Below, piece by piece: positions 3,242 to 48,436 of a stretch of 64,000 nucleotides of DNA (its first letter is position 1; every line of letters starts with the position of its first letter). The DNA is from a bacterium (GTDB lineage Bacteria; Patescibacteriota; Minisyncoccia; Phycocordibacterales; UBA2100). Under the pieces are notes generated by a model. That model had not been told where the DNA came from. It saw only the letters and a list, made by a program, of their open reading frames with translations, and did no database searches. The translations under genes were made by a program, and so were the position numbers. The DNA lies in contig JAUSJH010000002.1 of assembly GCA_030647655.1 (NCBI GenBank), positions 43,711 through 107,710 on the forward strand, given 5' to 3'.

Positions 3242-4536
3242 GAAAACTTTCGATGTTCCAGATCATGCTTCTCGTCATCTTCGGCGGTCTTGCCGTATCT
3301 GGTGTCTTGATATTCGCACTTGCCATAGGCGGCGGCGACACGAACACGATCGGTGCCGTCAAGATTTGGGGCACGCTTGACCAAGGGGCGTTTTCCATCG
3401 TCATCCGACAGGCGACAGAACGCGATGGACAATTGAGCCAAGTCACCTACGAGCAAAAAGACCCGGCGACCTACGAGAGCGAGCTCACCAATGCGCTTGC
3501 AAGCGGCACGGGGCCAGACCTCTTCCTGATGCGGCAGGATTACGCACTTAAAGACGCCGGCAAGGTTGCCCTCATTCCGTTCTCGGCGCTTTCGCAGGCG
3601 CAATTCGAGAACGCTTTCATCGAAGCGGCAAGTCCATTCCTTACGCAAAAAGGTGTTACTGCAGTCCCCCTCTTAGCCGATCCTCTCATTTTGTATTGGA
3701 ACAAAGATATGTTGGCTGCAGGTGGATTCGCACAGCCACCGAAATATTGGGACGAGCTTTTCAACATGGCGCAGAAGATAACGACGAAAGACGACACAGG
3801 CTCTATCCGCAAATCCACGGTTGCATTCGGTGAATATCAGAACGTAACGAATGCCAAAGATATCGTCGCGACCATGATACTCCAATCCGGTAGCACCATC
3901 ACAGCGTACGACAACGGAGGGCACCTCACTCCCGCGCTCGCGCCGCGCGCTGGGGGCGCCACACAAGCAAGCGTGTCGGCCCTGCGTTTCTACACGGAAT
4001 TCGCGGACCCTTCCAAGAACAGTTACTCATGGAACCGCTCGCTTCCGGAAGCGCAAAAAGCATTCGCTTCGGGCGATGTAGCGCTCTACATCGGGTATGC
4101 AAGCGAGGCACCACTTATCGCGCGCACGAATCCAAACCTTAATTTTACCGCCTCGCCTATGCCGCAAATACGCACCGGCGGTAAGACACTCACCGCCGCG
4201 CGTGTCTATGCACTCGGAGCTTCCCGCGCAGGCAAGAATCCGACCGCTGCCATTACCGCGGCGTTCCTTCTGGCATCGTCCGAGAATGCGAAAGCGCTCT
4301 CGAGTGCGCTCGGGATACCGAGTGCACGCCGCGACGTCGTGGGGCAATCTGCGCAAGGCACTGACGACCTCTTCAACAAACAAGCCATTCTTGCCAACTC
4401 ATGGCTTGATCCTGATCCTGAAAAGACAGCTACGCTCTTTCGCGCTATGATCGAAGGTACGACAAGCGGAACCTTGCAGGTAAGCGAAGCAATCCAGCGC
4501 GCGGACCAGCAATTGGCACAAATTCTTGGCCTATGA
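3238..4536 (+). CDS. extracellular solute-binding protein (SBP family 1-like), membrane-anchored
   Basis: N-terminal transmembrane/signal anchor (MFQIMLLVIFGGLAVSGVLIF). About 430 aa periplasmic-type binding-protein composition. Start overlaps the upstream stop (ATGA). No adjacent permease genes. Confidence 0.55.
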   Translation: MRKLSMFQIMLLVIFGGLAVSGVLIFALAIGGGDTNTIGAVKIWGTLDQGAFSIVIRQATERDGQLSQVTYEQKDPATYESELTNALASGTGPDLFLMRQDYALKDAGKVALIPFSALSQAQFENAFIEAASPFLTQKGVTAVPLLADPLILYWNKDMLAAGGFAQPPKYWDELFNMAQKITTKDDTGSIRKSTVAFGEYQNVTNAKDIVATMILQSGSTITAYDNGGHLTPALAPRAGGATQASVSALRFYTEFADPSKNSYSWNRSLPEAQKAFASGDVALYIGYASEAPLIARTNPNLNFTASPMPQIRTGGKTLTAARVYALGASRAGKNPTAAITAAFLLASSENAKALSSALGIPSARRDVVGQSAQGTDDLFNKQAILANSWLDPDPEKTATLFRAMIEGTTSGTLQVSEAIQRADQQLAQILGL

Positions 4537-4992: not shown

Positions 4993-5379
4993 ATGCGACA
5001 TGCTCGGACCATATTACCTATACTATTGCTCGCGGCGCCAGCGGTCGCCAGCGCCGCCGCACCACGCACATTTCAGGAGCTTGCGAGCCTCATCGTCCTC
5101 ATACTCGACAATGCTACGGCAGTCCTCATTGTCGCCGGTATCGTTATCTACTTCTGGGGCATCTCGACCAACATCCTAAAACTCAGCGACGAAGGCGGAG
5201 CAAAACTCAAACTATATCTTTTCTGGGGGATCATCGTGCTTTTTGTGATGGTATCCATTTGGGGAATTCTGCGGCTTCTACAAAGTACGATTTTTGGTAG
5301 TAGTGCATATAGTCAATCGTCGGAATTGACCGAGAGCAGGTCACCGGATCTTTTCCAGCCTCCGGTCTTTAGCGAATAA
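4993..5379 (+). CDS. TrbC/VirB2-like pilin family small membrane protein (paralog B)
   Basis: ATG lies 1 nt after paralog A's stop. Signal peptide ILPILLLAAPAVASA, two TM helices, and the motif FVMVSIWGILRLLQST shared with paralog D. Confidence 0.55.
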   Translation: MRHARTILPILLLAAPAVASAAAPRTFQELASLIVLILDNATAVLIVAGIVIYFWGISTNILKLSDEGGAKLKLYLFWGIIVLFVMVSIWGILRLLQSTIFGSSAYSQSSELTESRSPDLFQPPVFSE

Positions 5380-6484: not shown

Positions 6485-6793
6485 ATGGATGCTCTCGGAA
6501 ACGTAATGGATAAGTTCTGGGCCTATATCATCTCTCCGGCCATTCTTGTCATTTTCGCCTGCGGGTTCTTTCTGTTCGTTTTTGGACTCGTTGAGTTTCT
6601 CTGGAAGTTGAACGAAGGGGGAGATAATAAAGATGGGAAACAACACATGGTGTGGGGCATCGTCGGAATGCTCATCATGGTATCAGTGTGGGGTATTCTC
6701 GACCTACTCGACAACACCTTCGGCCTCGACTATAAGAATCCCGATGTCGGCCGCGCGCAGAACGTGCAAATCCCCGTCAATTTCGGGAATTGA
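6485..6793 (+). CDS. TrbC/VirB2-like pilin family small membrane protein (paralog E)
   Basis: Two TM helices with loop NEGGDNKDGK and the motif LIMVSVWGILDLL related to paralogs B and D. No obvious cleavable signal. An alternative start is possible at the internal Met, 6506. Confidence 0.5.
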   Translation: MDALGNVMDKFWAYIISPAILVIFACGFFLFVFGLVEFLWKLNEGGDNKDGKQHMVWGIVGMLIMVSVWGILDLLDNTFGLDYKNPDVGRAQNVQIPVNFGN

Positions 6794-6818: not shown

Positions 6819-6900
6819 GGGCAGGTGGCGTAATTGGTAGCCGCGCTAGGCTTAGGACCTAGTCCCGCAAGGGGTGCGAGTTCGAGTCTCGCCCTGCCCA
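6819..6900 (+). tRNA. tRNA-Leu (anticodon TAG)
   Basis: Acceptor stem GGGCAGG/CCTGCCC. Anticodon stem CTAGG/CCTAG with loop CTTAGGA. Long variable arm and T-loop GTTCGAGTC. CCA is not encoded. Confidence 0.8.
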
Positions 6901-6960
6901 CTGACGATTTCTAGGAGCGACGATGTTTCCAAATGGTGAAAGTTATGTACAATCGTTGAA

Positions 6961-8001: not shown

Positions 8002-8586
8002 CTATGTCGCAGGATTTCTGCGCACTATGAGTATACACACGGTTGAGGCATAGGCGAGAAATAAGTACACAGGGTAGAGGATATTCTGAAGCTCTAGGTT
8101 GTTTGAGGAAAGTAGCCCGAATAGAGCACCAGCTGAGAGCAAGACATAGGTCATCATAGTTTCGCTGTGTGGTAATCGGTACGACTTGATGGATGTCGGC
8201 AAAAGGAATAGGATATCGGCGATAATCGAAATGATAATTGCTGAAAGGGGTTCTTTGGTCGCAATCCAACTGATAATTGCTACTACGCCAAGCACGAAAC
8301 ACACTTTGTCGAGCGTATTGAATTTCGCATACCCATACCGGATGCCTAACACAGCAATAGTGGCGGTGCCGATCGTAGAGGCAATAGGCACAACTAGTGA
8401 GAGATTGGTGCCTTTCGCGAACTGAGCAACTATGGTTATTGTCGTCAGTAACGACCAGCCGACCCAAGAAACAATATTAGGATGAGTAGTGCGTGACAAA
8501 ACATCCCGTATATAGGGAATAGTCCCGGCAACCAGAAGAAGTCCAGATAAAATCGCGCATCCTATACGGATCGCATCTATGCTCAT
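8002..8586 (-). CDS. hypothetical 6-TM membrane protein
   Basis: Hydrophobic throughout (MSIDAIRIGCAILSGLLLVAG...). Start chosen at the Met immediately next to tRNA-Cys; the upstream extension in the ORF track would overlap the tRNA. Confidence 0.45.
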   Translation of the reverse strand: MSIDAIRIGCAILSGLLLVAGTIPYIRDVLSRTTHPNIVSWVGWSLLTTITIVAQFAKGTNLSLVVPIASTIGTATIAVLGIRYGYAKFNTLDKVCFVLGVVAIISWIATKEPLSAIIISIIADILFLLPTSIKSYRLPHSETMMTYVLLSAGALFGLLSSNNLELQNILYPVYLFLAYASTVCILIVRRNPAT

Positions 8587-9019: not shown

Positions 9020-10516
9020 TTATTGCATAGAGCTTGTGAATGCCTCTATGACGTCGCCTTCGGCTATCTCGCACTCGCAAGCAACCTGTGCCCCGAATTC
9101 GCGGCCCTCCTCGATTCTGTCTACATCTTGTTTGTTAGCTTGGACATTCTTCAACTTTCCTGTCCCAACGAGCTCGTTGCGTCTCATGATGCGGACTGTG
9201 GCACCTCGCGAGAGAAATCCGTCGACGACTTTGCCACCGACGACCTGCGCATCTTTGCGGCTTGAGAAATGTTTCAGGATGCGGGCGCGCCCCGTGGTAT
9301 TTTCGACGAGTCTCTTGGGCGCACGCTCTCCCAAAAGTTCCTCGAGACGCTCGGTGAGTTTGTAAATGATGGTAAAAGTCTCGATTTTGATACCGTGCTG
9401 AAGCGCGAGCGCAAAGGCCGGCGCGTCGATTACTACGTTGAACCCGACGACCACCGATCCATTACTTGCGATTGCGGCCTTCACGTCATTTTCCGACACA
9501 GCGCCGATGCCCGATTGTACGATGCTCACACGCGCATGTTCATCTCCCAGCTTCTCGGTCTCTTGTGCGATAGCTTCGAGTGAGCCGGAGACGTCTGCGC
9601 GCACTATTACAGGCATGGTAAATGGACCCACTTCTCCTTCGGCAAGTAGATGAGGGGCCGCGTGCGTGCTTCCGGCAGGCGCTTCCGCAGGGCGGGCGTC
9701 TTCAGCCTCGTGCTTTGTCTCATACGCGTAAAATTCTTCACCAACATTCGGTAGCTCGTCGAATCCTATGAGCTGTACTGGCGAGGAGAAGCTCGCTTCT
9801 TCAAGGGCCACTCCCGAATAATCTTCCATAATACGCACAGGAGCGATAGCGCGCCCCGCACGTACCGACATGCCGGAGTGCAGAGTTCCGTTCTTTACGA
9901 TGAGTGTCGCGGCGAGTCCGCGCTTTTGGTCTCGATGAGACTCAATGACATAGCCTTGCGCCGCGGCGCTTGGGTCTCCGGTGAATCCCTCCATCTCCGC
10001 TACCAAGAGGATGAGGTCCAAAAGCTCTTCGACACCGGTCCCCACCTTGGCCGAAACGGCGGCCCACGGCACGTCGCCGCCGAATTTTTCGAGGTACACA
10101 TTCTGCTCCAAAAGCATCCTCTGTGTGCGCGCGATATCCGCTGTCGGCTTGTCTATCTTGTTGAGGGCGACGATGAAAGGGGTGTTTGTATCGCGGATGC
10201 TTTTCAGAGCTTCGAGCGTCTGCGCTTTCACCCCATCGTCCGCGGCAACGACGAGTATGGCGATGTCGGCGGCCGAGGCACCGCGTGCGCGTATCGCGGA
10301 GAATGCTGCGTGTCCGGGAGTATCAATAAAAGTGATGCGCTTGTTTTTGTGCACTACTTCGTACGCCGCGACGTGCTGTGTGATGCCGCCCGCTTCAGTG
10401 GCGACCACGTTTGATTTGCGGATGAAATCGAGGAGCGTGGATTTACCGTGATCAACGTGTCCCAAAACTGCCACAATAGGCGGACGCTCTGTTGAATTGT
10501 TCGGTTTTGGGGTCAT
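9020..10516 (-). CDS. infB: translation initiation factor IF-2 (N-terminally short form)
   Basis: G domain AVLGHVDHGKSTLLD...DTPGH...NKID, followed by the IF-2 domain II/C-terminal beta-barrel. Only 498 aa, so it lacks the long N-terminal region. Confidence 0.95.
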   Translation of the reverse strand: MTPKPNNSTERPPIVAVLGHVDHGKSTLLDFIRKSNVVATEAGGITQHVAAYEVVHKNKRITFIDTPGHAAFSAIRARGASAADIAILVVAADDGVKAQTLEALKSIRDTNTPFIVALNKIDKPTADIARTQRMLLEQNVYLEKFGGDVPWAAVSAKVGTGVEELLDLILLVAEMEGFTGDPSAAAQGYVIESHRDQKRGLAATLIVKNGTLHSGMSVRAGRAIAPVRIMEDYSGVALEEASFSSPVQLIGFDELPNVGEEFYAYETKHEAEDARPAEAPAGSTHAAPHLLAEGEVGPFTMPVIVRADVSGSLEAIAQETEKLGDEHARVSIVQSGIGAVSENDVKAAIASNGSVVVGFNVVIDAPAFALALQHGIKIETFTIIYKLTERLEELLGERAPKRLVENTTGRARILKHFSSRKDAQVVGGKVVDGFLSRGATVRIMRRNELVGTGKLKNVQANKQDVDRIEEGREFGAQVACECEIAEGDVIEAFTSSMQ

Positions 10517-17424: not shown

Positions 17425-18093
17425 ATGTTGCCCAAAAAACCAGAAAAGAAGAAAGCGATTCGTTTGCGTGAGCAAGGTCGTTCTCTGAACGAAATCGCAA
17501 GGCAACTTAAAGTCTCAAAGGCATCTGTCTCTATTTGGGTACGGGACACAGTTTTGTCGAAACGTGCGCAGGAAAGAATTGAAAGGAAGAAGCTCGAGGC
17601 GCGCATGAAGGCCGCGAAGACTAATCGCGAACGGACAGAGCGCCTTCTACAGAACGCCGCCGCGAATGCTGATGCCGCGGTATCTAGCCTCAAACTTGAT
17701 GTCGAACTTATGCAAGTAATGTGCGCACTTATTTACTGGTGCGAGGGAGAGAAGGCGAAAAATGATAAAACGCTGACGTTCGCGAATTCCGACCCACGTC
17801 TTGTGACGACATTCCTGTTCCTATTACGCAAAAGCTTCGAGTTAGATGAGGGAAAACTCAGAGTCTGCCTACACTTACACGACTATCACAAAGAAAAGGT
17901 TCAGGTGCAGTTTTGGTCGCGGGTAACGAGGATACCGCCCACTCAGTTTCTAAAAACTTACCACAAGCAACACACGGGAAAACGTACGCGAGAAGGATAT
18001 GCAGGATGCGCGAGTATACGGTATTATGACACTCGGATTGCTCGGCAACTGCAAGCGCTCGCCCGGGCATTCCTAAAGAAAACGGGTCCATAG
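17425..18093 (+). CDS. HTH-domain protein with single-motif LAGLIDADG-like (homing endonuclease-like) domain
   Basis: N-terminal HTH (RSLNEIARQLKVSKASVSIWV). Central ALIYWCEGEK followed by LTFANSDP...LLRKSF...GK, which matches the LAGLIDADG motif and the downstream scaffold of I-CreI-like enzymes. The stop codon overlaps the first 10 nt of tRNA-Trp. Confidence 0.45.
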   Translation: MLPKKPEKKKAIRLREQGRSLNEIARQLKVSKASVSIWVRDTVLSKRAQERIERKKLEARMKAAKTNRERTERLLQNAAANADAAVSSLKLDVELMQVMCALIYWCEGEKAKNDKTLTFANSDPRLVTTFLFLLRKSFELDEGKLRVCLHLHDYHKEKVQVQFWSRVTRIPPTQFLKTYHKQHTGKRTREGYAGCASIRYYDTRIARQLQALARAFLKKTGP

Positions 18094-18157
18094 TTCAATG
18101 GTAGAATATCTCTCTCCAAAAGAGCAGACCTAGGTTCGATTCCTAGTGGGCCCGCCA
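18084..18157 (+). tRNA. tRNA-Trp (anticodon CCA), CCA end encoded
   Basis: GGGTCCATAGTTCAATGGTAGAAT; anticodon loop CTCCAAA; T-arm CTAGGTTCGATTCCTAG; acceptor TGGGCCC-G-CCA. Confidence 0.75.
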
Positions 18158-44108: not shown

Positions 44109-45077
44109 ATGCTGGTAGATGAAATAACCATAACGACCAAAGCGGGCGATGGCGGCAAAGGCTGCGTTGCTTTCAATAAGGTCAAGCTCTCGCGGGGCCC
44201 CACGGGGGCAGATGGAGGGCTCGGTGGAAGCGTCTACTTCGAGGGCACCTCGGATATCAATGCGCTCATGAACTACGCCAGCCAGAAAGAAGTGGCGGGA
44301 GAGAAGGGGCATGATGGCCGCGGGCAATTCCTCGACGGTCGTCGCGGGGAAGATCTCGTCGTGAAAATCCCGACGGGGACCACTATCACCAATATAGAAA
44401 CGAACTATACCCAAGAGATAACAAAAGTGGGTGAGCGCATCCTTGCCGCAGGCGGGGGCATCGGCGGGCGGGGGAATTTCAAATTCCGTTCAGCTATAAA
44501 TACAACGCCGATGGAATCGGAAGAAGGCACGCCGGGCGACCGCGCGACTTACCGACTCGAGCTCCGGCTCATCGCCGACGTGGGCCTCGTTGGCTTGCCC
44601 AATGCAGGCAAATCGAGCCTGCTCAATGAGCTCACCGCCGCCAAAAGCCGTGTGGCTAATTACGCCTTCACCACGCTTGAGCCGCACCTTGGCTCGTACT
44701 ACGGAATTATCCTCGCCGATATCCCCGGCATCATCGAAGGGGCGTCGGGCGGCAAGGGGCTCGGCGTCAAATTCCTCAAACACATTGAGCGCACCAAGGT
44801 ACTCTTTCATCTCATCGATGCAGAATCCGACGACGTCGTGCGCGACTACAAAGTCATTCGCAACGAATTGCAGACGTATAACCCAGAGCTCACCAAGAAA
44901 ATCGAACATATCCTCCTTACGAAGACTGATGCAGTGCCTCCCGAGGAGTTAAAAGAAAAGATTGCGGCACTAAAAAAAGCCAAACTCAAGCCACTTCCGA
45001 TATCCATCCTCGAACCAGCAAGCCTCGAAGAAGTGAAAAAAATCCTCAACAAGATCAAGGACGAGAAAGGGTTGTAG
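44109..45077 (+). CDS. obg: GTPase Obg (short form)
   Basis: Gly-rich Obg fold (DGGKGCVAF...GGLGGSV) and G domain (GLPNAGKSSLL, DIPG, TKTD). Confidence 0.9.
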   Translation: MLVDEITITTKAGDGGKGCVAFNKVKLSRGPTGADGGLGGSVYFEGTSDINALMNYASQKEVAGEKGHDGRGQFLDGRRGEDLVVKIPTGTTITNIETNYTQEITKVGERILAAGGGIGGRGNFKFRSAINTTPMESEEGTPGDRATYRLELRLIADVGLVGLPNAGKSSLLNELTAAKSRVANYAFTTLEPHLGSYYGIILADIPGIIEGASGGKGLGVKFLKHIERTKVLFHLIDAESDDVVRDYKVIRNELQTYNPELTKKIEHILLTKTDAVPPEELKEKIAALKKAKLKPLPISILEPASLEEVKKILNKIKDEKGL

Positions 45078-45152
45078 GTCCGAGCTTCGAGAAAGGGTTC
45101 CTGACACCCTTCCTCCCACAGCAAAATCAAGACGATTTATCGGATCGGTAGC

Positions 45153-45179
45153 CGACACCAAGGTCCGGCCTTGGTGTCG
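45153..45179 (+). terminator. 11-bp stem-loop after obg
   Basis: CGACACCAAGG-TCCGG-CCTTGGTGTCG. No clear U tract. Confidence 0.4.
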
Positions 45180-45266
45180 TAAGCCACTTCACAATCAGGT
45201 GCCAATCCCGTCGTATACTTGCAACAATGAGGTTCGAACCGCTGGTTTATCTGATACACTTATCCT

Positions 45267-45986
45267 ATGAGTTACAGTAAAAAATTATTTGTAATTGCAA
45301 CAATTATTGCATTAAGCGGAATAGTCGGGGCTTTATTATTGACCGTTTTTATACCTGGGTTTTATCTTTGGTACATAGGTATCCCTTTAATGCTCATAGT
45401 TTTTTTATTTGCATTAAGAAAACTTTTTCAATCTACAACAGTACAGAAAGATAAAATATATATTGTAATCACGCTTGTTATCAGCATTTTATATTTACTT
45501 CCTACTAGTAGTACTTTGTGGTCTCGGTTTAATTATAATCTTAGAAATTACGGAATGGAAAAAGTGCAAAACTTTGAGCAATGTGGAAGCATTCCCTATG
45601 TATCTCAAAAGGATGAGTGTATTACTCACGTTGCAAAAGTAAAAGGTGATGCTGACGGATGTAATCAAATATCAGATATACATACTCAGAATTCATGTAA
45701 ACGATTTGCCACAGCAACACTAGCAGGGATTATGAATGATGTCTCCCTATGCTTTAAGATAGAAGATTATATTGAAAAAGATTATGAACGTATTCAACGT
45801 CTTATAATCCCTATTTGTATAGGAGAAGTCGCTAGGATCAATAATAACCAGGACGCATGCAATGCATTTCGTGATGTTGAAGGATTTGTAAAAGAACATG
45901 GTGAAGTAGAAGTGAAGCAATATATTGATGAATGTAAATCCAGAGCCGCTGGAACCCCTGTTCAACTTCCAATTATCTCACGGTAA
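45267..45986 (+). CDS. low-GC Cys-rich membrane-anchored hypothetical protein (likely foreign)
   Basis: 239 aa with GC far below the window average. Two N-terminal TM helices and 12 Cys in the soluble domain. Confidence 0.5.
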   Translation: MSYSKKLFVIATIIALSGIVGALLLTVFIPGFYLWYIGIPLMLIVFLFALRKLFQSTTVQKDKIYIVITLVISILYLLPTSSTLWSRFNYNLRNYGMEKVQNFEQCGSIPYVSQKDECITHVAKVKGDADGCNQISDIHTQNSCKRFATATLAGIMNDVSLCFKIEDYIEKDYERIQRLIIPICIGEVARINNNQDACNAFRDVEGFVKEHGEVEVKQYIDECKSRAAGTPVQLPIISR

Positions 45987-46032
45987 ATAAATGGGGACAA
46001 TAAACGGGTATAAACGGGGATATAAACGGGGA
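45986..46032. repeat. four tandem copies of an 11-12 bp unit ATAAAYGGGGA
   Basis: AATAAATGGGGAC / AATAAACGGGT / ATAAACGGGGAT / ATAAACGGGGAC, directly after the stop of the low-GC gene. Confidence 0.7.
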
Positions 46033-46089
46033 CAGGCACAGTTTATCTCCCTTTTTTGTGGCGTGAAAAGCACAAAGGTCGGTTCTTTG

Positions 46090-46200
46090 TGCTTCGAGGA
46101 CTTTTAGACGCTGTTTCCGGCGACGAAGCCGGTGGTCCAGCAGAGCTGGAGCGAGTAACCTCCCGATGGGCGATTGATGTGGAGCACGTCGTCCGTGAGA
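46090..46200 (-). pseudogene. orphan duplicated 3'-end fragment of the HI0933-like flavoprotein gene
   Basis: About 100 nt that are roughly 90% identical to 46910-47010, including a 59-nt exact core. The minus strand translates to DDVLHINRPSGGYSLQLCWTTGFVAGNS, which equals the C-terminus of the 46914-48161 gene. Confidence 0.7.
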
Positions 46201-46273
46201 AAAGGATAGGCGCAGTTTATTTCACTTTTCTGGGGTGTAATGTTTTTCGGTGGGCGACCCGCGATGAAGGAGG

Positions 46274-46612
46274 TTACTTAATGAGGGTTACAGTGCGCAT
46301 GAGACTGTTGAGCGCTCGCCGGTCTTTCGCTCCGAGAGTGCCAATGCATTTGAGAAGGCGCCGCGAGTCGAGAGCGCGCAGTTGAAACACAAGAGCTACG
46401 GATGGTTTGGTAAGCTTGTTAGTCGCGTCGGGCAAAATGCGCAGGGTGGCATTGAACCGCAAGCGGGCAGTATTTGAAGAAAGTGGAATAATGAGAGAAA
46501 CGCCCCCTTCTCCATACAAAAATATCCCCGGCCGGATGCCTGCCTGTTCGCGCCCCGAGGGAATAGTGCCGAGATCTACGAGGACAATGTCCCCCGGCAC
46601 CACGCTGGTCAT
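46274..46612 (-). CDS. MazF/PemK-family toxin (mRNA interferase)
   Basis: GDIVLVDLGTIPSGREQAGIRPGIFL...LIIPLSS matches the PemK/MazF fold signature. 4-nt overlap with the upstream antitoxin. Confidence 0.75.
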   Translation of the reverse strand: MTSVVPGDIVLVDLGTIPSGREQAGIRPGIFLYGEGGVSLIIPLSSNTARLRFNATLRILPDATNKLTKPSVALVFQLRALDSRRLLKCIGTLGAKDRRALNSLMRTVTLIK

Positions 46613-46809
46613 AGGTTGCGGGCTTTTGCGAATTGCGCGAAATCTCTCAAGGACGTCTCGTCCCAGAGACGCATCTCCGCGGCCATATCATTCTCCGCCT
46701 CAATGGCTTGTTTGAGTGCGGTACGGACATACTCTGTCTGCGTCACACCGTGCCTCTGCGCACGCTGGCGAACTTGTTTTTCGAGGCTCTTTGGGATGAC
46801 TACGTTCAT
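46609..46809 (-). CDS. antitoxin (RHH/MazE-like)
   Basis: 66 aa. MNVVIPKSLEKQVRQRAQRHGVTQTEYVRTALKQAIE is a ribbon-helix-helix. Translationally coupled to the toxin. Confidence 0.6.
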   Translation of the reverse strand: MNVVIPKSLEKQVRQRAQRHGVTQTEYVRTALKQAIEAENDMAAEMRLWDETSLRDFAQFAKARNL

Positions 46810-46913
46810 GCGATTAGTATAGCGCTATAAATCCTTCAATGCCACTCATAGATAAACGGAGATTCTCCTTCGCCAAGGCTACGCAAGGGCGCAGCAGGCG
46901 CAGTTTGCCTCTT

Positions 46914-48161
46914 TTAGACACTGTTACCGGCGACAAATCCGGTGGTCCAGCAGAGCTGGAGCGAGTAACCTCCCGATGGGCGATTGATGTGGAGCACATC
47001 GCCGATGAGGTAGAGATTGGGGACTTTTAGGGAGCGCATGGTGCGCGTGTCTACTTCAGTGAGCGGCACGCCGCCGTCGGAGATGACCGCTCTATCGAAC
47101 CCCATGAGTCCCGAGATTGTGAGTGGCGCGCCTTTTAAGAGATGAACGAGTCGTTTGCGCTCTTCTTTTGTCACGTTGTGGGCTTTGAGATTTACATCGG
47201 GAAGCGCAAGCAGAATGAGAATTCCTTTTGCCATTCCATTCGGAAGAATCTCTGCCAGTACATTTTTAAAATCCTTATTCTTGTTGGCATCCATCTTGGC
47301 AATTATCTGCCGCTCGAGGGCGGCGAAGTCTGTATCGGGATACATGTCGATGGTCGCGGTAACCTCGGCATTCTTGAGCAATTCCGCAACGGCGCTCGCG
47401 CTGTTCAATATGAGGGGTCCCGAGAGTCCGAAGTGGGTGAAGAGTAGCCCGCCCGTCTTTGAGAATGCGCGTTTGCCGTCGGAGAAGAAGGTGATTTTCA
47501 TACGCTCGAGCGAGATGCCCGCGAGCGACTTTACCCAGCTCTCGCTTACTTTCAAGGGCACGATAGTCGGAGTTGGCTCCTGCACGGTATGTCCAAGCTC
47601 TGTGAGCCATTTGAATCCATCGCCCGTCGAGCCCGTCTCGGGATGCGAGACGCCGCCGGTTGCGATTATGAACGTATCAGCACGATAGGTGCCGTGTTCG
47701 GTCTTTGCCTCCGCGATGCGATTGCCGACGGCGGAGAGATTCTTCACAGACGTTTTCATCATCACGGTAACGCCTGCGTCGGTAAGATATTTTTTCATGA
47801 CGCGCGTTACGTCGGGAGATTTTTGCGTCTCGGGGAAAGCCCGCCTGCGCGCTTCTACGACGAGCGGGAGCCCGCGTACGCCAAAAAAGTCGAACGTATT
47901 CTGCACTCCGAATTGTGAGAGCGGGGAATAGAGGAATTGCTCCGCTGAGCCGTAGTGTTTGGCAAATGCATGTCGGTCAAACTCGGCATTAGTGATGTTG
48001 CAACGGCCGCCACCAGTGATATCAAGTTTCTTCCCGAGCGTCGCATTTTTCTCGAGCAGCAAGACCGATCTGCCGCGCTCGGCCGCACGCCCCGCCGCCA
48101 TCATTCCCGAAGCTCCGCCGCCGATGACGATGACCTCGTATTTTTTGGTCTCTGCGCTCAT
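46914..48161 (-). CDS. HI0933-like FAD-dependent flavoprotein (YhiN/aminoacetone oxidase family)
   Basis: YEVIVIGGGASGMMAAG Rossmann motif. ...GGGRCNITN and the C-terminal GGYSLQLCWTTGFVAG are typical of the family. Start trimmed to MSAETKKYEV. Confidence 0.85.
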   Translation of the reverse strand: MSAETKKYEVIVIGGGASGMMAAGRAAERGRSVLLLEKNATLGKKLDITGGGRCNITNAEFDRHAFAKHYGSAEQFLYSPLSQFGVQNTFDFFGVRGLPLVVEARRRAFPETQKSPDVTRVMKKYLTDAGVTVMMKTSVKNLSAVGNRIAEAKTEHGTYRADTFIIATGGVSHPETGSTGDGFKWLTELGHTVQEPTPTIVPLKVSESWVKSLAGISLERMKITFFSDGKRAFSKTGGLLFTHFGLSGPLILNSASAVAELLKNAEVTATIDMYPDTDFAALERQIIAKMDANKNKDFKNVLAEILPNGMAKGILILLALPDVNLKAHNVTKEERKRLVHLLKGAPLTISGLMGFDRAVISDGGVPLTEVDTRTMRSLKVPNLYLIGDVLHINRPSGGYSLQLCWTTGFVAGNSV

Positions 48162-48436
48162 AAAAGATGTATAACAGGCTTCCGTGGCTCGTGCGAGTTG
48201 AAATTTGATTTTTTGGCCGAGTGTGTTATTATCACTAGATGAACCTGCCCTCCAAGACATTTCATCGCAATGGCAGGTGGATAGAAAAACCGGATACGAC
48301 CAAAGTGGCGGTCTGTGCCTGTGAGAATAAGTACATCAAAACGCGTCCGGAGCAGAGCCAGTGCCTCAAGTGTATCTACAGGCGACCCGCGACCCGCTAG
48401 TACCTCGTCTGGTAGAATTATAGTTTCTATACCTGC

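What the first reader, a model, noticed from the sequence alone, without database searches (positions are those of the whole stretch)
46090..47010. About 100-bp direct repeats derived from a gene 3' end flank the toxin-antitoxin pair
The two copies are 46090-46200 and 46910-47010. Both include the stop codon and the last 30 or so codons (DVLHINRPSGGYSLQLCWTTGFVAGNSV) of the HI0933-like flavoprotein. The copy at 46910-47010 is attached to the full gene. The left copy is an orphan fragment downstream of the toxin-antitoxin pair. The plus-strand ORFs at 46056-46385 and 46839-47030 are antisense artefacts of these repeats, sharing GGPAELERVTSRWAIDVEH.
Basis: seen in the sequence. Interest (0 to 1): 0.55.

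Follow-up and report, generated by a model that had tools for sequence, protein, structure and literature searches.

The report
Gene-tail duplication flanking a toxin-antitoxin cassette
A small toxin-antitoxin gene pair sits just behind a flavoprotein gene in a Patescibacteria chromosome, between two copies of that gene's last 28 codons, and the same scar recurs around related cassettes elsewhere, pointing to spread by ordinary recombination rather than by an integrase.

Summary
The core repeat is 97 nt (46096-46192 and 46906-47002, 92/97 identical). It covers the last 28 codons, the stop codon and 5 more bases of the HI0933-like flavoprotein. It is the only direct repeat of 35 nt or more in the 64-kb window. 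It brackets an intact MazF/PemK toxin and RHH antitoxin operon.

Relatives show a conserved convergent flavoprotein/obg pair, with empty sites (3 and 36 bp gaps) or other small cargo. The orphan copy plus its terminator hairpin matches the native gene end of a relative. So the tail now on the gene arrived with, or was exchanged alongside, the cassette.

All five differences between the copies are synonymous, and they flank a perfect 57-nt core. A second, interleaved 35-nt repeat shows that an occupied and an empty version of the site lie in tandem.

The same architecture recurs: ParE/Phd at this gene, a PaaX-like gene at the obg tail, and MazF homologues at dnaG, a methyltransferase and two other genes. 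No integrase was found.

The best reading is recombination through gene-end homology between related lineages. The closest known analogue is "insertion with long target duplication" of restriction-modification systems. This is moderately interesting: a new cargo class and a new lineage for a known, mechanistically unsolved phenomenon.

The parts
46906..47002 (-). Gene-attached copy of the repeat (H_R): the last 28 codons, stop (46914-46916) and 5-8 nt downstream of the flavoprotein gene.
   Evidence: 92/97 identical to the orphan copy
46096..46192 (-). Orphan copy of the repeat (H_L): the same 28 codons plus stop (46104-46106), with no gene body upstream. Only weak similarity continues to about 46219.
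   Evidence: 5 differences from H_R, all synonymous third positions
46068..46094 (-). Terminator-like hairpin T (10-bp stem followed by T-run), immediately downstream of the orphan stop codon. It is the ancestral terminator of the flavoprotein gene and now lies behind the toxin-antitoxin operon.
   Evidence: fold z = -3.8, 0 of 200 shuffles fold as well. The stop codon plus about 40 nt is about 92% identical to the native gene end of relative L005
46274..46612 (-). MazF/PemK-family toxin gene, 112 aa.
   Evidence: PF02452 2e-13 covering profile positions 2-106 of 109; PHROG MazF-like; homologues of 110-112 aa at 60-79% identity
46609..46809 (-). RHH-type antitoxin gene, 66 aa. Its stop overlaps the toxin start by 4 nt.
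   Evidence: weak CopG/FitA/Arc-like hits; 64-74% identical to the upstream partners of the closest toxin homologues
46818..46829 (.). Perfect palindrome TATAGCGCTATA just upstream of the antitoxin start. Probable operator/-10 region of the cassette.
   Evidence: read from the sequence; TAGCGCTATACTA is conserved upstream of the L109 antitoxin. Function is inferred
46204..46238 (+). m2: copy of a 35-nt motif (GGATAGGCGCAGTTTATTTCAC...) between the toxin 3' end and the orphan. It marks the right-hand end of the 'occupied' unit.
   Evidence: 80% identical to m1
46030..46064 (+). m1: second copy of the 35-nt motif, beyond the orphan and terminator. It is preceded by three tandem ATAAACGGGG units (46000-46033).
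   Evidence: GGGGACAGGCAC is shared with L109 and L119 next to related cassettes
46893..46915 (+). m3: third, shorter copy of the motif (AGGCGCAGTTT at 46896-46906), between the antitoxin promoter region and the gene's stop codon. An ATAAACGGAGAT unit lies at 46852-46863.
46914..48161 (-). HI0933-like (aminoacetone-oxidase-family) FAD flavoprotein gene, the target gene. A longer ORF runs to 48260.
44109..45077 (+). obg GTPase gene, the conserved convergent neighbour that defines the other side of the insertion hot spot.
45267..45986 (+). Low-GC (about 0.30-0.37) ORF of 239 aa with no family match. A separate foreign cargo in the same gap.

Best explanation
The repeat is the scar of a recombination event that placed a self-contained MazF/RHH toxin-antitoxin cassette between the flavoprotein gene and its own terminator.

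Shown:
- Relatives have the flavoprotein and obg genes back to back, with nothing or with other cargo between them.
- The orphan copy together with the hairpin terminator is the ancestral 3' end of the gene.
- The gene is now completed by a second, slightly different copy of the last 28 codons, which adjoins the cassette promoter.
- The two copies differ only at synonymous sites on either side of a perfect 57-nt core.
- A second repeat (m2/m1) is interleaved with the first. The locus therefore reads [tail - TA cassette - m][tail - terminator - m]. That is an occupied and an empty version of the same site, from two related lineages, lying in tandem.

Inferred:
- The two versions were joined by host homologous recombination through the shared gene end. 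The simplest route is a circularised fragment carrying one version, integrating by a single crossover in the 57-nt core (Campbell-type). A one-ended homologous plus illegitimate joint would give the same product.
- No cassette-encoded or nearby recombinase is involved.
- Which version was resident cannot be told from the sequence.

Consequences: the host gene stays intact. The cassette sits inside the gene's transcription unit and uses the displaced native terminator. The direct repeats would allow later excision or amplification.
For: 1. Empty sites. The gap between the flavoprotein and obg stops is 3 bp in L001 and 36 bp in L009. It is 540-1820 bp with unrelated cargo in L002-L005, L007, L008, L131 and L132.
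2. The orphan's stop codon plus about 40 nt, including the hairpin, is about 92% identical to the native gene end of L005. The sequence after the gene-attached copy is unrelated.
3. There are 5 differences in 29 codons, all synonymous. P = 9e-4 under neutrality.
4. The differences cluster on both sides of a run of 19 identical codons. P = 0.008.
5. The coding repeat is 95% identical, while the interleaved non-coding repeat m1/m2 is 80% identical. This is as expected for orthologous sequence under different constraint.
6. Recurrence of the same architecture:
   - L008: ParE/Phd cassette at the same gene tail.
   - L007: PaaX/Cas2-like gene at the obg tail.
   - MazF homologues at the dnaG 5' end (L081/L082), a glycosyltransferase-like 3' end (L086), another 3' end with a frameshifted orphan (L094) and a Methyltransf_24 3' end (L109-L118).
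7. Pooled over these events, 28 differing codons are synonymous and 12 are non-synonymous. Mismatches by codon position are 6/9/29. P = 1e-4 against an in-situ duplication model.
8. The L109 orphan matches the allele of the sister lineage L119 (54/56) better than it matches its own gene copy (52/60). It is followed by the native terminator. L109 also has an interleaved second repeat.
9. L119 has the same gene-cassette adjacency with no orphan, so a duplication-free occupied allele exists.
10. About 5 of 19-22 independent MazF loci are bracketed by such repeats, against a background of 0.3%. P about 4e-9.
11. No integrase or transposase domain was found in the gap or in the ORFs scanned between 36 and 57 kb. 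No terminal inverted repeats were found.
Against: - No closer relative than 86% protein identity is in the databases. Neither the donor allele nor a population polymorphism at this exact locus was seen.
- A circular intermediate is purely inferred.
- The perfect core could instead reflect later gene conversion between the copies.
- One event (L086) shows a neutral-like pattern of 3 synonymous and 7 non-synonymous differing codons. L081 and L082 orphans resemble their own gene copies most. Some events may therefore be in-situ duplications.
- The m motif occurs three times in the window. GGGGACAGGCAC also lies next to related cassettes in L109 and L119. The model does not require this, and it might mark a recombination site.
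- The primary event that first put a cassette beside each gene remains unexplained.
Confidence: 0.5

Rival explanations
1. Failed allelic replacement. The lineage already carried the cassette directly behind the gene. DNA from a relative with the empty site (tail plus terminator) came in. A clean double crossover would have deleted the addiction module and killed or arrested the cell. Only recombinants that kept the cassette and added the incoming allele in tandem survived.
For: The structure is the same as in the best explanation, so all structural evidence applies.

The empty-type unit (tail plus hairpin) is the type seen in relatives, whereas the cassette allele is seen in none of about 90 related loci.

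Chromosomal restriction-modification systems are reported to resist replacement by allelic DNA through homologous recombination (Mruk & Kobayashi 2014, PMC3874152). I recall that survivors there keep both alleles, but I did not read that in the text.

This reading would also explain why repeats are enriched around addiction modules.
Against: The direction of transfer cannot be read from the sequence. A linear one-ended event does not predict the mosaic of a perfect core flanked by differences. L007 and several other repeat-bracketed cargos are not obvious addiction modules. Killing by this cassette is untested.
Confidence: 0.2
2. In-situ insertion with long target duplication. The cassette entered at staggered breaks about 100 nt apart, or by break repair. 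Both copies would then descend from the recipient's own tail and have diverged since.
For: This matches the published pattern for restriction-modification systems: repeats of more than 30 bp, of variable length, often spanning a start or stop codon, an empty site in a relative, and no mobility genes (Furuta et al. 2010, PMC2853133). L086 shows neutral-like divergence, and L081/L082 orphans are closest to their own genes.
Against: All 5 differences in the window are synonymous. Pooled, 28 of 40 differing codons are synonymous, with P = 1e-4 even allowing for selection on the gene copy. The non-coding interleaved repeat is four times more diverged than the coding one. The cassette lies inside one unit of an A-x-B A-y-B pattern, not between two identical targets. 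The L109 orphan carries the sister lineage's allele.
Confidence: 0.12
3. Site-specific integration. The repeats are attL and attR of a small integrative element whose attP mimics the gene's 3' end. The integrase has been lost or acts in trans, as for cis-mobilisable elements. The m motif or the tandem ATAAACGGGG units could be recombinase-binding sites.
For: Restoration of a gene's 3' end and an identity block at the presumed crossover are classic features of integrative elements (established knowledge). The 57-nt perfect core fits this. The m motif occurs three times at unit boundaries, and GGGGACAGGCAC is shared with L109 and L119 cassettes. Short tandem units at 46000-46033 resemble arm-type sites.
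Against: No integrase was found in the 810-bp unit, in the 1.8-kb gap or in the scanned neighbourhood. Related cassettes are bracketed by ends of five different genes, including a 5' end, with repeat lengths of 45-164 nt, so there is no common att site. The m motifs show no significant structure.
Confidence: 0.13
4. Assembly artefact or chance similarity.
For: The window comes from a metagenome-assembled contig. No reads are available here.
Against: This is the only repeat of its size in 64 kb. The copies differ at 5 positions and have distinct flanks, so the pattern is neither a collapse nor a duplicate graph path. The protein-level identity of the 28 codons is not chance. Analogous structures were assembled independently in many samples.
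Confidence: 0.03

Closest known systems
Insertion with long (about 100 bp, variable) target duplication of restriction-modification gene complexes (Nobusato et al. 2000; Furuta, Abe & Kobayashi 2010, PMC2853133; reviewed in Mruk & Kobayashi 2014, PMC3874152)
   Same: A small addiction-type gene unit without mobility genes is flanked by direct repeats far longer than transposon target duplications. Repeat length varies between events. The repeats span a translation stop or start, so the target gene stays intact. An empty site is present in relatives. The mechanism is unknown.
   Different: The cargo is a type II toxin-antitoxin pair (or another small gene), not a restriction-modification system. 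The host is Patescibacteria. The copies are not near-identical to one target; they differ as two alleles would (synonymous differences, and a sister-lineage allele in L109). A second interleaved repeat shows a tandem of occupied and empty alleles. In three further literature searches I found no report of this pattern for toxin-antitoxin cassettes.
Campbell-type (single-crossover) integration of a circular molecule carrying a gene end, as in insertion-duplication mutagenesis and homology-facilitated illegitimate recombination in transformable bacteria (established knowledge, not read here)
   Same: The product has one intact gene copy plus one truncated orphan flanking the inserted DNA. The crossover lies in an identical block. 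No dedicated recombinase is needed.
   Different: This would be a natural event between related uncultured lineages. The circular intermediate and the uptake route were not observed.
Integrative elements that target the 3' end of tRNA or protein genes (attL/attR), including integrase-less cis-mobilisable elements
   Same: The direct repeats contain the gene's 3' end. The gene is restored by element-borne sequence. The original end is displaced.
   Different: There is no integrase, no shared att site among related cassettes, and one target is a gene's 5' end with its promoter.
Type II MazEF/PemIK toxin-antitoxin modules
   Same: PemK-fold toxin, with a small upstream RHH antitoxin whose frame overlaps it by 4 nt, and a palindrome in the promoter region.
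   Different: Nothing unusual in the module itself. Activity is untested.

Membership tests
Insertion with long target duplication (Furuta et al. 2010 criteria) | Insert flanked by direct repeats longer than 30 bp | tested here: met
   97-nt repeat, 92/97 identical
Insertion with long target duplication (Furuta et al. 2010 criteria) | A related genome has an empty site with a single copy of the repeat | tested here: met
   L001 (3-bp gap), L009 (36-bp gap), and L005 with a native tail plus the same terminator. The nearest relatives are only 80-86% identical in protein sequence.
Insertion with long target duplication (Furuta et al. 2010 criteria) | Insert shorter than 20 kb, with no integrase, transposase or other mobile-element genes | tested here: met
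   713 bp between the copies, holding only the toxin and antitoxin genes
Insertion with long target duplication (Furuta et al. 2010 criteria) | Insert contains restriction and modification genes | tested here: not met
   The cargo is MazF/RHH
Insertion with long target duplication (Furuta et al. 2010 criteria) | Both copies derive from the recipient's own target (near-identical to the empty site) | tested here: inconclusive
   Synonymous-only differences, the mosaic pattern and the interleaved second repeat argue for two alleles. No sufficiently close empty site is available.
Site-specific integrative element (attL/attR) | Integrase or recombinase encoded in or beside the element | tested here: not met
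   No such domain in the gap or in the ORFs scanned from 36 to 57 kb. The rest of the genome was not seen.
Site-specific integrative element (attL/attR) | Related elements use the same att core | tested here: not met
   Homologous cassettes are bracketed by ends of five different genes
Site-specific integrative element (attL/attR) | Identity block at the crossover, and the gene end restored | tested here: met
   57-nt perfect core; intact reading frame
Type II MazEF/PemIK toxin-antitoxin module | PemK/MazF-fold toxin | tested here: met
   PF02452, 50.9 bits against a cut-off of 23.1
Type II MazEF/PemIK toxin-antitoxin module | Adjacent small DNA-binding antitoxin, co-transcribed upstream | tested here: met
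   66-aa ORF overlapping the toxin start by 4 nt. The RHH-type hits are weak (below Pfam cut-offs), but the protein is conserved with its toxin partners at 64-74%.
Type II MazEF/PemIK toxin-antitoxin module | Toxicity neutralised by the antitoxin | not testable with these tools
   Needs expression experiments
Integron gene cassette (attC-bounded) | attC site with paired R''/L'' and L'/R' cores and a folded bottom strand; an IntI integrase nearby | tested here: not met
   The m motifs lack GTTRRRY cores and do not fold better than shuffles (z from -1.6 to +0.6). No integrase was found. No dedicated attC model was run.
Transposon or insertion sequence | Terminal inverted repeats and a short (under 15 bp) target duplication | tested here: not met
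   No inverted repeats bracket the cassette. The duplication is 97 nt.

The most novel reading that the evidence does not exclude
Small addiction cassettes in Patescibacteria (and in other groundwater bacteria) spread and persist without any recombinase of their own. They travel with a piece of the neighbouring conserved gene's end as a homology arm. Because losing them is harmful, incoming empty alleles cannot replace them. The result is tandem 'occupied plus empty' alleles, whose gene-end duplications are a readable record of allele-level post-segregational killing in nature.
Probability: 0.25. Interest if true: 0.7.

Novelty: new member of a known kind. Interest (0 to 1): 0.45.

Why it matters
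How chromosomal toxin-antitoxin modules move, and why they persist, are long-standing questions. Here a cassette with no mobility gene carries a clear insertion scar, and the scar recurs around related and unrelated cassettes in several uncultured lineages.

The mismatch spectrum indicates that the two repeat copies come from different lineages. That points to host homologous recombination through gene ends as the vehicle.

If general, three things follow:
- Gene-end duplications become a simple genomic marker for recent cassette traffic in organisms that cannot be cultured.
- The Kobayashi 'long target duplication' phenomenon extends from restriction-modification systems to toxin-antitoxin systems.
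- There is a testable link to resistance against allelic replacement.

For annotation, it warns that the orphan tail and the two antisense ORFs are not genes.

Tried and rejected
- Exact look-ups of the window's toxin and flavoprotein in the contig index returned nothing. The protein search later showed that both are in NCBI, on a 197,796-bp contig.
- No flavoprotein relative closer than 86% exists, so no population-level empty or occupied polymorphism could be obtained.
- I scanned viral contigs for the motif GGGGACAGGCACA..TT. It gave only scattered hits consistent with chance, and I did not pursue them.
- I tested whether a hairpin family with a CCTG loop is expanded in the window. It is not: 10 found against 10.9 in shuffles.
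- Folding the three m motifs gave no significant structure. Only the terminator hairpin is significant.
- Rfam searches found only tRNAs in the window, and nothing at E up to 1 in 44900-47200.
- I considered that the m motifs are remnants of the C-terminus of the secreted-protein gene that lies next to the flavoprotein in L002, L005 and L129 (GACAGGCAC...GTTT similarity). I could not decide this. The match to L109 and L119 non-coding sequence is longer.
- I compared L081 and L082 for cross-lineage alleles as seen in L109/L119. There are none.
- Three literature searches for toxin-antitoxin cassettes flanked by long direct repeats found nothing specific. The original Nobusato 2000 paper is not held.
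Full report
**The observation**

The region was read directly and searched for repeats. One direct-repeat family stands out: 46101-46219 and 46911-47029, 119 nt at 86% identity, 810 nt apart. It is the only direct repeat of at least 35 nt in the whole 64-kb window.

A codon-level comparison refines this. The true homology runs 46096-46192 against 46906-47002. It comprises the last 28 codons (DVLHINRPSGGYSLQLCWTTGFVAGNSV), the stop codon and AAAAG. Identity is 92 of 97 nt, with a perfect 57-nt core. Upstream of that, 11 of 12 codons differ, so the rest of the tool's 119 nt is at best a decayed edge.

The right copy is the genuine 3' end of an HI0933-like FAD flavoprotein (46914-48161, minus strand; PF03486 8e-75). 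The left copy is an orphan. Between them lie a MazF/PemK toxin (46274-46612; PF02452 2e-13) and a 66-aa RHH-type antitoxin (46609-46809). Their frames overlap by 4 nt, and both are on the same strand as the flavoprotein.

**Context**

The flavoprotein's relatives place the window in Patescibacteria (Kaiserbacteria/Nomurabacteria-like MAGs). The best hits are at 80-86% protein identity.

In these relatives the flavoprotein and the obg GTPase are convergent neighbours. The distance between their stop codons varies:
- 3 bp in L001 and 36 bp in L009. These are empty sites.
- 540-1820 bp in others, each with different small cargo:
  - secreted proteins (L002, L005, L129);
  - an AsnC regulator (L131);
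  - a 118-122-aa ORF (L004, L132-L139);
  - a PaaX/Cas2-like protein (L007);
  - a ParE/Phd toxin-antitoxin pair (L008).

The window has 1836 bp. This holds the MazF cassette and a separate low-GC ORF (45267-45986; GC about 0.30-0.37 against about 0.52; no family match). The site is thus a hot spot for small accessory genes.

**Which copy is ancestral**

The orphan's stop codon is followed by AAAAGTCCTCG and a strong hairpin (46068-46094). The hairpin has a fold z-score of -3.8, and none of 200 shuffles folds as well. In L005 the intact gene is followed by the same sequence (TAAAAGTCCCCGAAGCACAGAGAACCGACCTATGTGCTTTTC, about 92% identical). The gene-attached copy in the window is instead followed, after AAAAG, by unrelated sequence leading into the antitoxin promoter.

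So the orphan with its terminator is the ancestral end of the gene. The tail that now completes the gene belongs to the cassette-bearing unit.

**Nature of the divergence**

The five differences between the copies are all synonymous third-position changes: GAT/GAC, GGA/GGC, TTT/TTC, GGT/GGA and AGT/AGC. Only 25% of random changes in these codons would be synonymous, so P = 9e-4.

One difference lies at the 5' edge and four lie in the last 25 nt. They flank 19 consecutive identical codons. P = 0.008 for such a run.

Each copy is much closer to the other (82/87) than to any orthologue (75/87 at most). The two tails therefore diverged while each was part of a working gene in closely related lineages. 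The mosaic is what a crossover, or a conversion tract, inside the core would leave.

**A second, interleaved repeat**

A 35-nt motif occurs at 46030-46064 (m1) and 46204-46238 (m2) at 80% identity. A shorter third copy (AGGCGCAGTTT) lies at 46896-46906 (m3).

Read in the gene's direction, the order is: gene - tail - [m3] - antitoxin - toxin - m2 - tail(orphan) - terminator - m1. This is an A-x-B A-y-B pattern. One unit carries the cassette (x) and one carries only the terminator (y). It amounts to an occupied and an empty version of the same site placed in tandem, with a single novel junction between m2 and the start of the orphan.

The coding repeat is 95% identical and the non-coding one 80%. 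This fits orthologous sequences under different constraint better than two segments duplicated at the same moment.

**Recurrence**

The architecture is not unique to this locus.
- **L008:** a ParE/Phd pair lies between the flavoprotein's tail and an orphan copy of its last 24 codons. The orphan carries an alternative, orthologue-like ending (GSNV instead of GNSV).
- **L007:** a PaaX-like gene lies between obg and an orphan obg tail.
- **MazF homologues.** A metagenome scan and protein search with the window's toxin gave about 19-22 independent loci. In five of them direct repeats of a neighbouring gene's end bracket the pair:
  - the window itself;
  - L081/L082: the first 15-26 codons of dnaG (in L082 plus its promoter region); blastn repeats of 78 and 96 nt;
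  - L086: a glycosyltransferase-like 3' end, 78 nt;
  - L094: a 3' end of 164 nt whose orphan has a frameshift;
  - L109-L118: the last 15 codons of a Methyltransf_24 gene, 60 nt, seen in at least ten independent assemblies.

In 783 kb of Patescibacteria control sequence, the chance that a 540-bp segment is bracketed by such repeats is 0.3%. That gives P about 4e-9 for five of 19.

In every toxin-antitoxin case the intact gene end adjoins the antitoxin/promoter side and the orphan follows the toxin.

Pooled over six gene-orphan comparisons (five independent loci; L081 and L082 share the dnaG site), 28 differing codons are synonymous and 12 are not. Mismatches by codon position are 6, 9 and 29. 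P = 1e-4 even against a model in which only the gene copy is under selection. One event, L086, looks neutral.

**The L109/L119 pair**

These two related genomes share the methyltransferase-cassette adjacency at about 86% nucleotide identity.
- L119 has no orphan.
- L109 has one, followed by a terminator hairpin.
- That orphan encodes the L119-type ending (TMYWQLQSK*). It matches L119's gene tail 54/56, but its own gene copy only 52/60.
- L109 also has an interleaved second repeat: 3644-3721 against 4360-4396 plus 5206-5248. Its second unit holds a different PemK gene, and a Y1 transposase has been inserted within that unit's copy of the repeat.

This is the same tandem of two alternative alleles, seen in an unrelated gene context.

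**Mechanism**

Firmly supported:
- a cassette insertion scar at a gene end;
- the native end displaced together with its terminator;
- no integrase or transposase in the unit, the gap or the ORFs scanned between 36 and 57 kb;
- no terminal inverted repeats;
- different target genes for related cassettes.

Inferred: the tandem arose by host homologous recombination through the gene end. The simplest route is a circularised fragment of one allele integrating by a single crossover in the identical core. A one-ended homologous plus illegitimate joint would give the same product. The direction (cassette into an empty genome, or an empty allele into a cassette-bearing genome) cannot be decided.

The second direction is attractive for one reason. 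Chromosomal restriction-modification systems are reported to resist replacement by allelic DNA through homologous recombination (Mruk & Kobayashi 2014, PMC3874152, citing Handa 2001 and Sadykov 2003). I recall that survivors there retain both alleles, but I did not read that in the text. This would also explain why addiction modules are the units bracketed by such repeats.

Functionally, the flavoprotein stays intact. The cassette lies between the gene and its former terminator. The repeats could support excision or amplification.

**Comparison with what is known**

The closest described phenomenon is 'insertion with long target duplication' of restriction-modification systems. These are repeats of tens to about 100 bp, of variable length, often spanning a start or stop codon. 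An empty site is present in a related genome, no mobility genes are present, and the mechanism is unknown (Furuta, Abe & Kobayashi 2010, PMC2853133; Mruk & Kobayashi 2014).

The present case meets those criteria except for the cargo. It differs in that the copies behave as two alleles rather than as one duplicated target.

Classical att-site integration shares the restored gene end and the identity block. It fails on the integrase and on the lack of a common site. Integron and transposon models are not supported (and the repeat searches).

In three further literature searches I found no report of this pattern for toxin-antitoxin cassettes. Absence from that library is not proof of absence.

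**Unexplained**

- The m motif occurs three times in the window. Its longest form, with the tandem ATAAACGGGG units, shares GGGGACAGGCAC with sequence at a similar position, about 80-100 nt downstream of the toxin gene, in L109 and L119. Its role is unknown. It could be a cassette-end signal, a recombination site, a relic of a neighbouring gene's end, or a terminator element. The motifs do not fold significantly.
- The primary event that first places a cassette beside a given gene is also unexplained.

**Verdict**

The finding is real and correctly described. It is a natural example, in an uncultured lineage and with a toxin-antitoxin cargo, of a known but poorly understood mode of gene insertion. 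The allelic signature and the recurrence give it more than routine interest. The enzymology and direction remain inferred, and no close relatives or reads were available to settle them.

Noticed in passing
window 45267-45986 (+): ORF of 239 aa with GC about 0.30-0.37 in a roughly 0.52-GC chromosome. It has N-terminal hydrophobic segments and a Cys-rich C-terminal half. It has no Pfam or PHROG match and no tblastn hit in the 80 related loci. It is a second, independent foreign cargo in the flavoprotein-obg gap.
   Followed up: partly
window 46000-46064 (+); L109 3707-3741; L119 4230-4262: Three tandem ATAAACGGGG units are followed by GGACAGGCACAGTTTATCTCCC. The 12-mer GGGGACAGGCAC, with neighbouring G-rich short repeats, also lies about 80-100 nt downstream of the toxin gene in two other genomes carrying related MazF cassettes. 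Its function is unknown.
   Followed up: partly
window 45062-45111 (+): The last 12 nt of obg (CGAGAAAGGGTT) are repeated 26 nt downstream. There they form the left arm of a hairpin, AAGGGT-TCCTGAC-ACCCTT. The same loop with covarying stems (AATGGT-ACCTGAC-ACCATT) flanks a Y1 (RAYT-like) transposase gene in inverted orientation in L109 (4403-4426 and 5113-5136), and a closely similar motif follows the orphan tail in L008 (about 6875-6910). This is possibly a REP-like element family in Patescibacteria. It is not expanded in this window.
   Followed up: partly
L005 6258-6286, 7133-7164, 8032-8062: The terminator hairpin that follows the window's orphan occurs three times in relative L005. The copies separate the flavoprotein, two cargo genes and obg. 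This looks like another repeat-bounded cassette series at the same hot spot.
   Followed up: partly
L022 8467-8581 / 9627-9739 and 6646-6684 / 8440-8478; L024 897-1016 / 1641-1760; L018 2014-2080 / 3426-3492; L103 708-745 / 1320-1357: Other Patescibacteria loci carry direct repeats of 38-120 nt (92-100% identical) that bracket small cargo. The cargo includes a 329-aa ORF, a Phd/ParE pair plus a 238-aa ORF, a 110-aa ORF, and a pair of 83-aa and 71-aa ORFs next to the closest MazF homologue. Whether these repeats derive from gene ends was not examined.
   Followed up: no
L027 537-1190 (-): An ORF beginning MRNIQISVGEYYHILNRG (a Y1/RAYT-like motif, recognised by eye only) is flanked by inverted and direct repeats.
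   Followed up: no
window 17425-18093 (+), next to tRNA-Trp at 18084-18157: A 222-aa protein with an N-terminal HTH_23 / resolvase-type HTH. Its 3' end overlaps the start of a tRNA gene. No catalytic recombinase domain was detected.
   Followed up: no
window 48161-48260 (-): The longest flavoprotein ORF starts at 48260 (448 aa). Homologues and the NCBI protein (415 aa, 100% identical) indicate the start at 48161.
   Followed up: yes
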